Source: a virus (Duplodnaviria; Heunggongvirae; Uroviricota; Caudoviricetes). Taken from it: a DNA stretch of 64,000 nt. The stretch is from IMG/VR virus record IMGVR_UViG_3300044699_000054, positions 1 through 64,000 of that record. One strand, given 5' to 3'. Below, one piece after another: positions 9,001 through 12,000 of the stretch. Made by a program: the position numbers. Position 1 is the stretch's first letter, and each line of letters begins with the position of its first letter.

Positions 9001-12000
9001 CCTGCGGAGTGAGGTCGCCCGGTACCGGAGAGATCCGGTGCCGGGTACGAGGATGGTTGAAACGGTCAACCGTCCCTAGTGGAGAGAGGAACGACCATGA
9101 ACCAGACAGCTACCACGACCGAGGCGCGTCCGGCAAACCCGATCATCGATGAGCTGCGCGCTGAGCTGCGCGATATCGAGATCGATGTACTGTCGGCCTA
9201 CACCCTTGCCGATGCAATCCGCGAGGGTGCCAGGGTGACCACGCAGGCCAATGGCTGGGGGTCCGGCCGCGAGGCTTGCGCGCTCTCAGCCGCCTACCTG
9301 ACGGCTCACGCGCGGGGTTGGATCGAGTAGCACACAGGTCGGATGTCCACACCGGACATCCGGCCGCGATACCGGGCGACGGTCGTCCGGCATCAGAGAG
9401 GAAGGGGAGGTGATCTATGCCACCCCGTGTGCGTCGGCTGGCCTATGTGTGGGTAGACACACCAGTCGGACAGATTGACGACGGGCCGCATGGCTTCACG
9501 TCCGACCATGCGTGCATAGAGGCTGCTCAATCGATGTGGGAGCAGCATCTAGGCGCATGGCTCATGCACAAAGCTGGCACGCTAGATCCGGGATTCCGGC
9601 TGCTCGAATGCGTGCAGGCTGACGGATTGGACCGATACCCACATCACAAGGAATGGCGACCAGGGATCGACGCCGCAATGCAGTGGGCCGGGATGGACCT
9701 CCCGACTCGCGGCGCCGTAGTGCACGACTACCGAACAGAGCGAGCGCGCGTGATCCGGTCCCGGACACGTACGCCGTTCCAGCGGGTAGAAGACATGGCC
9801 GTGCAAGCGGCCAAGCGTCAACGCGCATTCAACCGTGCCAGCCATCCTAGCCCGACAGACTCCGGTCCAGGGTCGATCGAATGGGCACCTGTGTTTGGCC
9901 CGTACTGTGCAGTCCCGTTGTCCCAGTAGTCCACGACAGATAGAGGAGTGACCATCGGCGGACGTCAGTGCCTACCCGCGCTGACGTCCGTCCCATCTTT
10001 CTGCCCGCCAAATGATCTTACTTCCATCGATGTCTGCTGTCCCCTTGCTATGGTGATCATGGATGTGGGCTGTCCACTGTGGCCAGTGCCACGGGCGCAG
10101 GTCGGTATGGCTATGGTCAATTGATATGCGCCGATGGCCCATGGCCCAGTCGCATGGCGGCAGGCGATCGAGCCAGGCCTATTTTCGCAGGTCACAGGCA
10201 GTGTCCGGCCGCGTCCAGGTGCGCCAGTCGCACGCGCGTTCGGTACGGTGTGTGTGATCATGTAGCTGTATCCTGTCTCATATGTCCAAATTGCAAAATT
10301 CGAAAATCGAGGGGCGCCCAGGGCCGGTTGCGCGTCCACACAACAGGCTAATCGGACATTGAGCCCATGCCAGGCAAACAGCTTTTTCTGGACAGGCCGC
10401 TGGCGCCTACGCAAAGACACATACCTGACGCCTGCCCCCGGCAGCTTGATACTTTGCTCCTCTTCAATGCATTGATTGGAGAAGGCCCTGCTCGCGTAGG
10501 CCGGAAACACATAAATTGAATTCCGAAACAAGAAGCAGTGATCCAAAAATTCCACATGCATGTTGCCTGGGAGCATGGGCACGTACCCTGGTACACATGA
10601 CCTTCGAGCTGCCGGCTGGTTCCATCCCCGAGATCAATGAGGAGAACCTGGTCAACGACCAGGGCCGGGTGCGGGCGCTGATTGTCACCCGGATCGAGCA
10701 GCTGTGGCAGCCCATCGACAAGGGCCTGCAGATGGACCACGAAGGCATCCGGCCTGCTGATCCTCGCCTGCTGGAGATTGGTCGCGGGCTGATGAAGGAT
10801 CTTGCTGCCGTCTACCGCCTGGGTCGAGCCCTCACCACCACTGATGAGGAAGCCGACGACGAGCTACCAGTCATTGACCGCGCGGCCATGGTGGAAGAGA
10901 AGCTGTCCCAGATCGAAGCCAGGTTGAAGGAAGCCACCGGCTAGGACTTTGGGTGGGTGCTGTGGCAGCTGTTGCTGGTACTGCGGTAGCTGGTACCAGT
11001 TAGTTGACTCGGGCACACGAGGGCAGACACTTGGGTGCCTGTCCGCAGGTGCAGGGACCTAGCAGCTCGAAGTCAGCCAGCTCCTTGTCGAAGACGGCGG
11101 GACTGGGCATGTCGATGTAGACCAGGTTCGGGTCGCGCAGGTTGGCGAACAGGTACCGGTCATAGCGGTACAGCGCCTGGTAGAAGAACCAGGACTCCCA
11201 ACGTGGGTGATGCGACTGCAGCGCCCGCCTGCGGATGTTGGCTTCCCGGTAGGCACGTTGACGGAAAGTAGCCGAGTTGACTTCCGCTGGGAGGTCGGTG
11301 ATCTCTAACCGGTAGACGTTTCCGTCCAGGAACCGGTCCCACCACTGGCTGGAAATGGACGAAGTTCGAGGCATGTCAGGAATTATAGCCTGTAGCGACA
11401 ACAACAGTAGCACCAAACCTTCCTCCGGCTTGTTCCTGCTTGATCCGTGGAAAGTTTTTACTATCGCCACAACGGCCGGAAAAGTTGTTCCTGCAAAAGC
11501 ATGATCAACTCCTGTTATTCATGATCAACTTTCGTTGTTCCTGGTACTTTTATCAGGTCTTTCTTTCTTTTTTATGACTTAAATGAATAAGTAAAGTCTG
11601 AACCTGGAGTAAAGAAAAAAAAGGGGAAGTAGTAGTAGTGATAATAAATAATGAGGTAGAAGGTAGTACTACTATTATGATCGCCACGGAAATTCTGTAG
11701 AAGCTACAGTGGGGTTGGTCGTTCCTGTTCCTGGTGTTGTTCCTGCTGATGGCTGTCGATGCCTCAAGCCGCCGGACCACGGTCGCCGGGGGAGGCTCTG
11801 CCCTGCCGCCGTCCACGCGGTGACGTTACGTTAGGTAACTGCCGGGGCTTGGACTGCCGGGGCTGGTTGCTGGTACCTGGATTGCTGGTACCAGTGGCTG
11901 GTTGCCTGCAGGGGGATGTGGGGGTATGATTGGGTGGTCTCGAACTGGAAGCGTGGGAGGAGAGGGTGATGACCGAGGGCGTGGGGACCGAGAGCGCGAG

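What the first reader, a model, noticed from the sequence alone, without database searches (positions are those of the whole stretch)
10960..11930. Ori-like AT-rich core with GTTCCTG iterons bracketed by CTGGTACCAG palindromes
A 150-bp about 30% GC core (11555-11700) sits between two clusters of three GTTCCTG repeats. CATGATCAACT appears twice. The perfect 10-bp palindrome CTGGTACCAG occurs at 10990 and 11885 (plus GCTGGTAC half-sites at 10965, 11536 and 11869). These flank the only divergently oriented gene in the left arm (11000..11376). The pattern is iterons plus a DNA-unwinding element plus paired operators, which fits a replication origin, a partition site or an immunity-like switch.
Basis: seen in the sequence. 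Interest (0 to 1): 0.6.

Follow-up and report, generated by a model that had tools for sequence, protein, structure and literature searches.

The report
Conserved non-coding control hub in actinophage
The flagged stretch is a real, evolutionarily conserved 590-base gene-free control region of an uncultured soil actinobacteriophage, packed with protein-binding repeats, promoters and hairpins around an AT-rich centre; whether it switches early genes, starts DNA replication, or does both cannot be settled from sequence alone.

Summary
Six same-strand GTTCCTG copies (3+3) flank the lowest-GC 150 nt of the 64-kb window. TTGTTCCTG occurs only here. CATGATCAACT occurs twice. Two GCTGGTAC/CTGGTACCAG clusters sit at 10974-10999 and 11869-11894.

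The window is a novel actinophage-like siphovirus. The region (11375-11965) is non-coding and belongs to a conserved 2-kb module (9988-~12043): non-coding IGR1, leaderless gene A (+), leaderless gene B (-), then this region (IGR2).

Relatives down to 28-48% gene-B identity keep the same layout. They share a bipartite 17-mer (G/T)TCCTG-N1-3-AGATCAAC found only upstream of gene B. They also share an AT-rich core whose inverted repeat changes sequence between lineages, a G-skewed distal half, and a sigma-A-type promoter (TTGCCT-17-TATGAT, 11902-11930).

The "palindromes" are hairpin stems, not paired operators. One is the gene B terminator. The other is a 17-bp hairpin abutting the promoter.

Best reading (0.4): a protein-bound early-transcription control hub. 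Close rival (0.33): an origin with an HSV-oriS or lambda-like layout. Partition site: rejected.

Also noticed: the module borders a 10-kb segment found in both orientations, and a 1.3-kb C-rich CCGACTACCC array lies 1.2 kb downstream.

The parts
9957..9991 (+). Strong hairpin at the end of the upstream 10-kb gene block S. Its 3' arm spans the 9987/9988 breakpoint that forms the left edge of module M.
   Evidence: 15-bp stem, dG -29.6, z -7.1. Breakpoint mapped.
9988..10596 (.). IGR1: non-coding left part of module M. It has invariant blocks (about 10070-10195 and 10300-10600) and a leaderless promoter for gene A (TTGCCT 10564-10569 ... TACCCT 10585-10590, then 7 nt to the ATG).
   Evidence: No codon periodicity in the 205-aa reverse ORF. 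Conservation map. Promoter read from the sequence and from L012.
10597..10944 (+). Gene A, 115 aa. Predicted three long helices. No family match. 74-98% identical among the five homologs found (79% on the contig that carries the 44%-identical gene B, P0004). Partner of gene B in all relatives with the downstream flank available.
   Evidence: Coding periodicity 24/10/46..
10956..10999 (-). GCTGGT-rich, copy-number-variable repeat between the convergent stop codons. It contains hairpin CUGGUAC(10999-10993)/GUACCAG(10981-10975) immediately after the gene B stop codon (11002-11000), which is the likely gene B terminator.
   Evidence: Indels of 9-nt GCTGGTGCA units among close relatives. Most variable 50 nt of the module. 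Fold z -2.98 on the - strand.
11000..11374 (-). Gene B, 124 aa. An alpha/beta N-domain plus an invariant C-terminal LLGPCTCGQxPxCLPSC motif. Small uncharacterised family.
11375..11390 (-). Leaderless promoter of gene B: -10 TATAAT (11387-11382 on the - strand), 7 nt, then ATG. CAGGAAT (11377-11383), an inverted copy of the repeat core, lies between the -10 box and the ATG.
   Evidence: Sequence. CAGGAA is invariant in 27 sequences. Equivalent TATAGT/TATTGT/TACAGT-6-8 nt-ATG in L013, L014, L015.
11432..11543 (+). Left repeat block. GTTCCTG at 11432, 11487, 11537. Two tandem bipartite elements: GTTCCTG-N9-GATCAAC (11487-11509) and CTCCTG-N8-GATCAAC (11508-11529). The stretch 11475-11575 is nearly invariant.
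11540..11575 (+). Hairpin CCTGGTA-CTTT-TATCAGG followed by TCTTTCTTTCTTTTTT (terminator-like). A related box CCTGGTCTTTTACC is present in relatives.
   Evidence: Fold dG -7.0, z -2.1. Relatives.
11555..11700 (.). AT-rich core, purine-rich on the + strand. It is the lowest-GC segment of the window. Its composition is conserved but its sequence is hypervariable. It carries inverted repeats: 11628-11637/11664-11673 and 11560-11570/11611-11621.
11676..11681 (+). Putative rightward -10 box: TATGAT in the window, TAGTAT at the same position in relatives. The predicted start near 11688 coincides with the start of the invariant block.
   Evidence: Alignments. Inference only; the consensus scan did not detect it.
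11690..12000 (+). Nearly invariant G-skewed block. It contains the small hairpin CTGTAG-AAG-CTACAG (11695-11709), GTTCCTG x3 (11721-11745) and a direct repeat CTGCCGGGGCT (11839-11849, 11854-11864).
   Evidence: 13 variable columns in 300 across the eleven aligned sequences, which differ 8-15% elsewhere in the module; the same block is almost solid invariant in the larger alignment of 17-24 sequences. No coding signature. Whole-block RNA fold is not significant.
11861..11903 (+). 17-bp hairpin formed by GCTGGTTGCTGGTACC / GGTACCAGTGGCTGGTT. It is strand-asymmetric (G.U pairs) and abuts the -35 of P_R.
   Evidence: dG -26.4, z -3.84, 0 of 200 shuffles. The - strand reaches only -14.1. Invariant in 22 sequences.
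11902..11930 (+). P_R: sigma-A/sigma-70-type promoter TTGCCT-17-TATGAT with a G5-N4-G5 spacer. It serves the rightward early operon (RBS GGGAGGAGAGGG, ATG 11969).
   Evidence: Invariant. Conserved counterpart TTGCTT..GGGGGATGTGGGGGTATGGT in L013 and TTGACA-17-GATGAT in L012 and L015. Unique in the window.
11969..12331 (+). DUF6197 gene. Only about its first 25 codons (to ~12043) belong to the conserved module; beyond that point, relatives carry alternative genes.

Best explanation
The 590-bp gene-free stretch 11375-11965 is the cis-acting control region of a conserved 2-kb early module (9988-~12043).

What the sequence and comparisons show:
- It is non-coding.
- Its left edge is the leaderless promoter of gene B, with an inverted copy of the repeat core between the -10 box and the ATG.
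- Its right edge is a conserved sigma-A-type promoter (P_R) for the rightward early operon.
- Between the two promoters, two highly conserved blocks of sites flank an AT-rich spacer that carries an inverted repeat. The sites are a bipartite GTTCCTG...GATCAAC element plus solitary GTTCCTG copies.
- The two CTGGTACCAG clusters are hairpin stems. One is the gene B terminator. The other is an insulator or attenuator hairpin directly in front of P_R.

What is inferred:
- A module-encoded protein binds the sites on both sides of the flexible AT-rich spacer, co-operatively or by looping. Gene B product is favoured because the site sits in its own promoter. Gene A product is the alternative because its sequence is as conserved as the 17-mer.
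- Binding would autoregulate gene B.
- Binding would also gate transcription that arises in or crosses the spacer. This includes a probable transcript from a -10 box at 11676-11681 that runs through the invariant block to the 11861-11903 hairpin.
- Together these effects would set early-operon expression.
For: Non-coding status: no codon periodicity in any ORF of the region, in contrast to genes A and B, and frame-breaking indels in the core.

Promoters: P_R was found by the consensus scan, is invariant in about 22 sequences and recurs in distant relatives. The leaderless -10 box plus ATG of gene B recurs in L013, L014 and L015.

Sites: TTGTTCCTG is unique to this region in 64 kb. The bipartite element is found in 11 of 12 distant relatives, only upstream of gene B, in direct or inverted orientation, against 0.42 expected per shuffled 64 kb. 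CAGGAA in the gene B promoter is invariant. Some relatives carry palindromic site pairs typical of dimeric regulators, for example TTCGTTCCTGCATCAGGAACGAA in L015.

Hairpins: positions and fold statistics. The left cluster behaves as a slippage-prone 3' spacer.

Conservation map: conserved, variable, conserved blocks.

Context: in the alternative genome arrangement, the module sits exactly between two divergent gene blocks.

Against: No repeat copy overlaps P_R; the right cluster lies 160-180 nt upstream of it.

A region of 590 bp, with 200 nt of near-invariant sequence lacking repeats, is much more than a simple divergent promoter needs.

Gene B varies 15-20% among close relatives while the sites stay invariant.

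No expression or binding data exist.

The architecture (initiator-type sites flanking an AT-rich, palindrome-bearing core between divergent promoters) fits a viral origin equally well.
Confidence: 0.4

Rival explanations
1. A replication origin. An initiator (gene B product or a host or unseen phage protein) binds the GTTCCTG/GATCAAC sites on both sides of the AT-rich core. The core melts, helped by its inverted repeat. Alternatively, a transcript from the core promoter runs into the G-rich invariant block and primes synthesis through an R-loop, as in T4 oriF/oriG, ColE1, or the RNA-based origins of cluster A mycobacteriophages. Gene B would autoregulate through the inverted half-site in its promoter, as RepE does.
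For: The core is the lowest-GC 150 nt in 64 kb, and its composition is conserved while its sequence is free to vary, as expected of an unwinding element.

Sites flank the core. In L012, L015, L016 and L033 the 17-mers form an inverted pair around it.

The inverted repeat in the core is kept with different arm sequences in different lineages.

An inverted half-site lies in the promoter of the adjacent small gene.

The transcribed side shows a strong + strand G skew with G-runs.

There is a precedent: ~600-bp non-coding regions are sufficient for autonomous replication as RNA-based origins in actinophages (PMC7157519).

The region lies between divergent transcription units, as in many viral origins.
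Against: The repeat core is only 7-9 bp and is irregularly spaced (55, 50, 6 and 12 nt), unlike 17-22-bp iterons.

There is no DnaA-box cluster.

No recognisable Rep, primase or helicase lies nearby or among the window proteins that were scanned.

Gene B is 124 aa with one small domain, against about 250-350 aa for two-winged-helix Rep proteins.

The module is absent next to the shared neighbouring genes in the related phages L017 and L018.

There is no sequence similarity to any deposited phage.

GC skew gives no signal.
Confidence: 0.33
2. One or two small non-coding RNA genes on the + strand. RNA-1 would be the invariant 11475-11575 block ending in a hairpin plus U-run. RNA-2 would run from about 11688 to about 11903, ending in the strong G.U-containing hairpin. 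The GUUCCUG repeats would act as RNA-level motifs (protein-binding or anti-Shine-Dalgarno-like seeds), and the AT-rich core would merely hold a terminator and a promoter.
For: Both invariant blocks end in + strand hairpins.

The right hairpin is far more stable on the + strand (-26.4 against -14.1 kcal/mol), as expected if G.U pairs matter.

A TANNNT box is preserved through substitutions just upstream of the invariant block.

In L012, L015 and L016 the core inverted repeat is followed by a T5-6 run on the + strand.
Against: Rfam gives no match.

The whole-block fold z-scores are -0.76 and -1.86.

No promoter is evident for RNA-1.

The motifs occur in both orientations in relatives, which favours recognition as double-stranded DNA.

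The close relatives are too similar for covariation analysis, and the distant ones cannot be aligned in this block.
Confidence: 0.12
3. A recombination or mobile-element feature. The inverted 17-mers would be recombinase sites or terminal repeats of a small invertible or mobile cassette, or the region would be part of the machinery that flips the neighbouring 10-kb segment.
For: Inverted 17-mer pairs lie about 270-330 bp apart in four relatives.

The module has sharp boundaries with alternative flanks on both sides and borders a segment seen in both orientations.
Against: The observed breakpoints are at 9988 and ~12043, not at the 17-mers.

In the window lineage the two 17-mer-like elements are tandem and direct.

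No recombinase or transposase is detected in the module or among the window proteins that were scanned.

The core has the same polarity in all lineages.
Confidence: 0.05
4. A partition (centromere-like) site.
For: Clustered short repeats only.
Against: No ParA/ParB/ParM/ParR-like protein is detected among the proteins scanned, which include every gene adjoining the region. The repeats are few and mixed with promoters and terminators.
Confidence: 0.03

Closest known systems
Divergent early/immunity control regions of temperate phages (lambda PRM-OR-PR; actinophage repressor/cro intergenic regions)
   Same: A small gene is transcribed away from the early operon. Its mRNA is leaderless, like lambda cI from PRM (recalled from general knowledge). 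A repeat copy sits in its own promoter. Multiple copies of one short site are present. A sigma-A-type early promoter lies at the far end.
   Different: The two promoters are about 530 bp apart instead of about 80-120 bp. No site overlaps P_R. No HTH repressor, Cro-like gene or integrase is detected. An AT-rich core bearing an inverted repeat and a 300-nt invariant block lie between the promoters.
Viral and plasmid origins with initiator sites flanking an AT-rich element (lambda ori: iterons, AT-rich region, palindrome; HSV-1 oriS: inverted UL9 boxes around an AT-rich palindrome between divergent IE promoters, inside inverted repeats flanking the invertible US segment; RepE/iteron plasmids with an inverted half-iteron operator)
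   Same: Short sites lie on both sides of, and in some relatives inverted around, the most AT-rich DNA of the region. A palindrome lies in the core. The position is between divergent transcription units. A half-site sits in the neighbouring gene's promoter. The region is possibly located in an inverted repeat that flanks an invertible segment. These comparisons rest on textbook knowledge, not on tests run here.
   Different: The core motif is 7-9 bp and irregularly spaced. No recognisable initiator, DnaA boxes or replication genes are nearby. No functional data exist.
RNA-based (non-RepA) prophage origins of cluster A parABS mycobacteriophages (Wetzel et al. 2020, PMC7157519)
   Same: Actinophage context. 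A ~600-bp non-coding region that needs no protein-coding gene. A candidate non-coding transcript.
   Different: Those origins sit next to parABS and were defined experimentally. Here no parABS is detected, there is no sequence similarity, and transcription is only predicted.
Intrinsic, often U-tail-less terminator hairpins of Actinobacteria
   Same: The two CTGGTACCAG/GCTGGTAC clusters fold into stems placed at a gene 3' end and directly upstream of a promoter.
   Different: There is no U-tract. The two hairpins share a 30-nt repeat (83% identity). The left one lies in a variable-number 9-nt repeat.

Membership tests
Iteron-type replication origin | Three or more direct repeats of about 17-22 bp with regular (about 22-bp) spacing | tested here: not met
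   Six copies of a 7-9-bp core spaced 55, 50, 184, 6 and 12 nt apart. The longer bipartite element has only two copies in the window.
Iteron-type replication origin | Adjacent AT-rich DNA-unwinding element | tested here: met
   GC 0.28-0.35. Lowest-GC 150 nt of the 64-kb window. AT-richness is kept in all relatives.
Iteron-type replication origin | Cognate Rep initiator (winged-helix domains) encoded next to the repeats | tested here: inconclusive
Iteron-type replication origin | Host DnaA boxes (TTGTCCACA in Actinobacteria) | tested here: not met
   14 one-mismatch matches in 64 kb against 15.7 expected; none lies in 9352-12255.
Iteron-type replication origin | Supports autonomous replication or incompatibility | not testable with these tools
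   Requires cloning in an actinobacterial host.
RNA-based prophage origin (cluster A non-RepA type) | ~600-bp non-coding region adjacent to parABS that expresses a non-coding RNA | tested here: not met
   Size and non-coding status match. However, no ParA/ParB is detected among the proteins scanned, there is no nucleotide similarity to any deposited phage, and RNA expression cannot be tested.
Phage immunity / early switch region | Divergent promoters for a regulator gene and the early operon | tested here: met
   Leaderless TATAAT-7-ATG for gene B and TTGCCT-17-TATGAT for the rightward operon, both conserved in relatives. These are predictions from sequence, not mapped starts.
Phage immunity / early switch region | Operators overlapping both promoters | tested here: inconclusive
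   CAGGAAT lies between the -10 box and the ATG of gene B. No repeat copy overlaps P_R; only the hairpin abuts its -35.
Phage immunity / early switch region | Repressor with a recognisable DNA-binding domain (HTH or RHH) | tested here: not met
   No Pfam, PHROG or NCBIfam domain in gene A or gene B. Gene A is three long helices.
Partition site (parS/centromere) | Adjacent ParA/ParM-type NTPase and centromere-binding protein genes | tested here: not met
   None found among the neighbouring genes or the other window proteins that were scanned.
Intrinsic terminator (for the two palindrome clusters) | Stable stem-loop at a transcript 3' end | tested here: met
   Left: the stem starts at the first base after the gene B stop codon, z -2.98. 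Right: 17-bp stem, dG -26.4, z -3.84.
Intrinsic terminator (for the two palindrome clusters) | U-tract after the stem | tested here: not met
   No T-run follows either stem. Only the 11540-11575 hairpin has one.
Known structured RNA family | Match to an Rfam covariance model | tested here: not met
   No hit at E<=1 in 9000-15000.

The most novel reading that the evidence does not exclude
Module M (9988-~12043), including this region, exists as two inverted copies flanking the 10-kb early-gene block S (window 1-9987). Recombination between the copies flips S, giving genome isomers. Each copy would carry an origin-plus-divergent-promoter hub. This would be a phage counterpart of HSV-1 oriS in the repeats around US, or of the 2-micron/chloroplast inverted-repeat flip-flop. 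The evidence allows this reading but does not prove it. Every contig reaching window position 1 continues into reverse-complemented M. Every contig leaving 9987 continues into forward M. Identical M sequences are joined to two alternative outer flanks. Several contigs equal M plus short overhangs. The window itself starts exactly at the junction.
Probability: 0.2. Interest if true: 0.75.

Novelty: new variant of a known kind. Interest (0 to 1): 0.5.

Why it matters
Origins and early-control regions of actinobacteriophages are almost entirely unmapped. The only experimentally defined ones are the prophage origins of cluster A (PMC7157519).

This work defines a compact, conserved and experimentally tractable cis-module:
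- a 17-bp bipartite site;
- an AT-rich core bearing a palindrome;
- two predicted promoters and three hairpins;
- two small partner proteins of unknown fold families.

The lineage is abundant in soil and rhizosphere metagenomes, where dozens of contigs from many samples carry it.

If the region is an origin, it could seed new actinobacterial vectors. If it is a switch, it defines a new regulator-operator pair.

Its position at the edge of a 10-kb segment found in both orientations raises the possibility of programmed genome isomerisation in a tailed phage.

Tried and rejected
- Nucleotide search of deposited phages with 10000-13200: no match.
- Gene B searches in IMG/VR and in 185k reference genomes: nothing. 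DUF6197 gene and the gene at 4752-5453 in IMG/VR: nothing.
- Pfam, PHROGs, NCBIfam and PDB sequence searches for genes A and B: nothing. Pfam on longer family members of gene B: nothing.
- Rfam: none.
- Whole-block RNA folds are not significant, and the same holds for the invariant IGR1 block.
- tRNA scan (attP check): none. No integrase is recognised, so attP is rejected.
- DnaA boxes: at chance level.
- GGTACC/CTGGTACCAG as a genome-wide operator: rejected. The other copies are in coding DNA and the counts fit a high-order Markov model.
- Small ORFs in the region (56, 41 and 87 aa) and the 205-aa reverse ORF in IGR1: no coding periodicity.
- Tiny uORFs created by AGTTGATCATG on the - strand: the ATG is not conserved in L013.
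- The sigma-70-like - strand promoter at 11701-11674: its -10 box is not conserved in close relatives.
- GC skew as an origin test: dominated by gene orientation and by the C-rich array.
- Literature searches for an invertible-segment or C-rich-array precedent in actinophages: nothing relevant.
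Full report
**1. What the window is**

The 64-kb window is an uncultured siphovirus related to phages of Actinobacteria.
- It encodes a 577-aa major head protein (phrog_777, E 4e-122). The best tblastn match is 41% identity to Actinoplanes phage phiAsp2, followed by Microbacterium, Gordonia, Rhodococcus and Mycobacterium phages.
- Other recognisable genes include a tape-measure protein, major tail protein, head-tail adaptor, endolysin, RusA, RNase H and a WhiB-like regulator.
- Small, mostly unknown genes run rightward from 1 to about 27.2 kb. 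Structural and other genes run leftward from the right end.
- There is no nucleotide match in 50,697 deposited phages.
- No replication protein was recognised among the proteins scanned. A related IMG/VR contig is 104 kb long, so much of the genome is probably outside the window.

**2. The observation**

All the listed elements exist, and the clustering is far beyond chance.
- GTTCCTG lies on the + strand at 11432, 11487, 11537 and at 11721, 11727, 11739. The Poisson P for at least 6 copies in 320 nt is about 2.5e-12.
- The extended form TTGTTCCTG has four exact copies in 64 kb, all here.
- CATGATCAACT is at 11500 and 11520.
- The core is the lowest-GC 150 nt of the window.
- CTGGTACCAG is at 10990 and 11885.
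- Corrections: the GCTGGTAC half-sites are at 10974, 10989, 11869 and 11884, not at 10965 or 11536. The divergent gene is 11000..11374.
- The two palindrome clusters are copies of one 30-nt repeat with 83% identity.

**3. Coding status and local gene map**

I aligned about 30 close relatives (84-99% identical DNA from many soil and rhizosphere metagenomes) and counted variable sites by codon position.
- Gene A (10597-10944, +): 24/10/46, so it is coding.
- Gene B (11000-11374, -): 32/17/42, so it is coding.
- The 205-aa reverse ORF in 9965-10582: 58/73/60, so it is not coding.
- The ORFs inside 11553-11929 also show no coding signal.

The local map is therefore:
- a strong hairpin at 9957-9991 (dG -29.6, z -7.1);
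- non-coding IGR1 (9988-10596);
- gene A, rightward;
- gene B, leftward;
- non-coding IGR2 (11375-11965), which is the finding;
- the DUF6197 gene.

Both small genes look leaderless.
- Gene B: TATAAT, 7 nt, ATG.
- Gene A: TACCCT, 7 nt, ATG.
- Equivalent TANNNT boxes sit 6-8 nt before the ATG in distant relatives.

**4. Conservation map of the finding**
- Hypervariable: 10950-11000 (indels of 9-nt GCTGGTGCA units); 11150-11470 (most of gene B and its promoter-proximal DNA); and the AT-rich core 11575-11690, where AT-richness is kept but the sequence is free to vary.
- Nearly invariant: 11475-11575 (two GTTCCTG copies, both GATCAACT copies, and a hairpin plus T-run).
- Nearly invariant: 11690-12000. 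This block holds three GTTCCTG copies, a GC-rich stretch, the right hairpin, the promoter, the 5' UTR and the first ~10 codons of the DUF6197 gene (to 12000).

**5. Distant relatives**

Gene B belongs to a small uncharacterised family, with 90 representatives at 50% clustering. Twelve loci with 28-48% identical gene B proteins (L012-L016, L028-L035) keep the same architecture.

(a) A 480-900-nt gene-free region lies upstream of gene B. It has a low-GC, purine-rich core near the gene and a GC-rich, G-skewed distal half.

(b) A bipartite element (G/T)TCCTG-N1-3-AGATCAAC is present in 11 of 12 loci.
- It occurs only in this region.
- It is present in one to three copies.
- In L012, L015, L016 and L033 it forms an inverted pair around the core.
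- In the window, the same two halves are separated by 8-9 nt and occur twice in tandem (11487-11509 and 11508-11529).
- This degenerate pattern is expected 0.42 times per shuffled 64 kb and occurs nowhere else in the window.

(c) Extra solitary half-sites occur in all these loci. They read GTTCCTG or GGTCCTG depending on lineage.

(d) An inverted repeat lies inside the core, and its arm sequences differ between lineages.
- Window: 10 nt.
- L028: 30-38 nt.
- L012: 16 nt.
- L013: 13 nt.
- The structure is what is conserved, not the sequence.

(e) A promoter with a G-run spacer lies at the distal end.
- Window: TTGCCT-GCAGGGGGATGTGGGGG-TATGAT.
- L013: TTGCTT-GAAGGGGGATGTGGGGG-TATGGT.
- L012 and L015: TTGACA-17-GATGAT.

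(f) CAGGAA(C/T), an inverted half-site, lies between the -10 box and the ATG of gene B.

**6. The palindromes**

Each CTGGTACCAG pairs with the GCTGGTAC half-site 15 nt upstream.
- Left: on the - strand, the stem (10999-10993 with 10981-10975) begins at the first base after the gene B stop codon (z -2.98). It lies in the copy-number-variable repeat.
- Right: on the + strand, the pairing extends to a 17-bp stem (11861-11903; dG -26.4; 0 of 200 shuffles as stable). It relies on G.U pairs, because the opposite strand reaches only -14.1 kcal/mol. The stem ends 2 nt inside the -35 of P_R.

These are better read as transcript hairpins: the gene B terminator, and an insulator or attenuator before P_R. 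They are not paired operators. Other exact copies of the 10-mer lie in coding DNA.

**7. Mechanism**

Shown by sequence and comparison:
- a non-coding region bounded by two conserved promoter-like elements;
- two conserved blocks of one family of short sites on either side of an AT-rich spacer bearing an inverted repeat;
- a site copy in the gene B promoter;
- hairpins closing each conserved block on the + strand.

Inferred:
- A module-encoded protein occupies the sites.
  - Gene B is favoured by the promoter half-site.
  - Gene A is the alternative. It is far better conserved than gene B: 79% identical on the contig where gene B is 44% identical, which parallels the conservation of the 17-mer.
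- The bound protein would autoregulate gene B.
- It would also control transcription arising in or crossing the spacer. A TANNNT box (TATGAT in the window, TAGTAT in relatives, 11676-11681) sits 7 nt before the point where invariance begins.

I give this control-hub reading 0.4.

The origin reading gets 0.33. The layout matches lambda ori (iterons, AT-rich region, palindrome) and especially HSV oriS. Non-coding ~600-bp origins are documented in actinophages (PMC7157519). Against it:
- the motif is short and irregularly spaced;
- there are no DnaA boxes;
- the module is missing from the equivalent place in the related phages L017 and L018.

A pure ncRNA reading gets 0.12, and partition or recombination readings get less. 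The control-hub and origin models are not mutually exclusive.

**8. Genome-structure context (unexpected)**

The module's left edge (9988) is a rearrangement junction.
- Every contig that reaches window position 1 with upstream DNA (13 contigs) reads reverse-complemented 9988-onward, then CT, then position 1 onward.
  - L047 is 99.9% identical to the window.
  - The 13.4-kb contig L040 carries RC(20184..9989).
- Every contig leaving the last gene of the 1-9987 block reads straight into 9988 as in the window (14 contigs).
- L007 (collinear) and L024 (inverted junction) come from the same sample and are 100% identical over the module.
- Several contigs are just the module plus short overhangs, ending at 9988/9989 and ~12043.
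- The window itself starts at the junction.
- Beyond ~12043 there are at least three alternative continuations. Sequences 100% identical up to that point then diverge, as with L050 and L058.

Two models fit these facts.
- The module is an inverted repeat flanking the 10-kb block, which flips by recombination. This model predicts all four junction-flank combinations, and all four are observed.
- The block is the physical terminus of a linear genome and exists in both orientations.

Read depth and long reads would decide between them. Under either model, the module lies between gene blocks that can be divergently transcribed, which is where early-control regions and viral origins are usually found.

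**9. Verdict**

The feature is real, conserved and not described in any library searched. Its kind (a phage early-control region and/or origin) is known, but its components are new. Interest is moderate (0.5), and it would rise if the inverted-repeat/flip-flop model with paired origins is confirmed.

Noticed in passing
window 13140-14500; also L017 3281-5190, L018 9401-9995, L040 5700-6800: A 1.3-kb block that is extremely C-rich and G-poor (C 51.5%, G 14.9%; GC skew -0.45 to -0.68). It is a degenerate array of the core CCGAC(T)ACCC. The window has 35 CCGAC copies against 5 expected. L017 has 48 copies with a modal spacing of 38-41 nt and stop codons in all three frames. The core occurs in all three phases of the 474-aa ORF, so the ORF is compositional and the repeat acts at the DNA or RNA level. 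The block always lies between homologs of genes 12533-13138 and 14522-15241, and its length varies from 0.6 to 1.9 kb. Its function is unknown; possibilities include a giant Rho-loading leader, a centromere-like array, or an R-loop element. TRF does not detect it.
   Followed up: partly
window 1-9987 and junctions at 1 and 9987/9988; loci L006, L021, L024, L026, L040-L048 versus L001, L007, L020, L025, L049-L058: The 10-kb left gene block is joined to the 9988 side by both of its ends. Position 1 is always preceded by reverse-complemented 9988-onward (plus CT). Position 9987 is always followed by 9988 forward. Sequences identical over the module show both junctions in one sample. This implies either inverted-repeat copies flanking an invertible block or a terminal block present in both orientations. 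The window starts exactly at this junction.
   Followed up: partly
window 9957-9991: A very stable 15-bp hairpin (dG -29.6, z -7.1) whose 3' arm is cut by the 9987/9988 rearrangement breakpoint. One relative (L021) has a junction shifted by a few bases that retains ACGTCA.
   Followed up: partly
window 9988-10596: A second long non-coding region (IGR1). It contains about 125 nt of invariant sequence (10070-10195) and another conserved stretch (10300-10600). The 205-aa reverse ORF that gene callers annotate here has no codon periodicity. There is no Rfam hit and no significant fold.
   Followed up: partly
window ~12020-12043 (inside the first 25 codons of the DUF6197 gene): A sharp mosaic boundary. 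Sequences identical up to this point continue into at least three different downstream gene sets: the window's DUF6197 gene, a 97-aa gene, or an array of five DUF6197 paralogs. All share the same promoter, 5' UTR and N-terminal ~25 residues.
   Followed up: partly
window 11000-11150 (3' third of gene B): The C-terminal LLGPCTCGQxPxCLPSC motif is invariant across the whole protein family. Its DNA is almost invariant even at synonymous sites among close relatives and is detectable by blastn in 28-35% identical homologs. This suggests a metal-binding motif and possibly an overlapping nucleic-acid constraint.
   Followed up: no
whole window: Four 6-bp palindromes are completely absent although 7-20 copies are expected: CCGCGG (0 against 20), GAGCTC (0 against 15), CTCGAG (0 against 12) and GGGCCC (0 against 7). 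CCCGGG is depleted (7 against 18). This looks like restriction-site avoidance.
   Followed up: no
window 55037-63997 (- strand, probably continuing beyond the window): A giant ORF of at least 2,986 aa lies upstream of the head genes. It has only a weak local match to a PHROG family of unknown function (phrog_3162, E 1.3e-05), so its function is unknown.
   Followed up: no
window 7137-7260 and 7399-7427, inside ORF 6697-7590: 45-nt (3 x 15-nt) tandem repeats, GACGGATTCAACCG-like, encoding a repeated peptide motif in a 297-aa protein of unknown function.
   Followed up: no
window 28715-33574 (- strand): A cluster of sugar- or metabolite-modifying genes in a phage: a glycosyltransferase (28715-29452), an FAD/NAD(P) oxidoreductase (29984-31000) and a C-methyltransferase with a zinc-binding domain (32321-33574).
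   Followed up: no
window 11969-12331 and 20248-20664: Two DUF6197/phrog_762 paralogs lie in the left arm. Relatives carry tandem arrays of up to five such paralogs.
   Followed up: no
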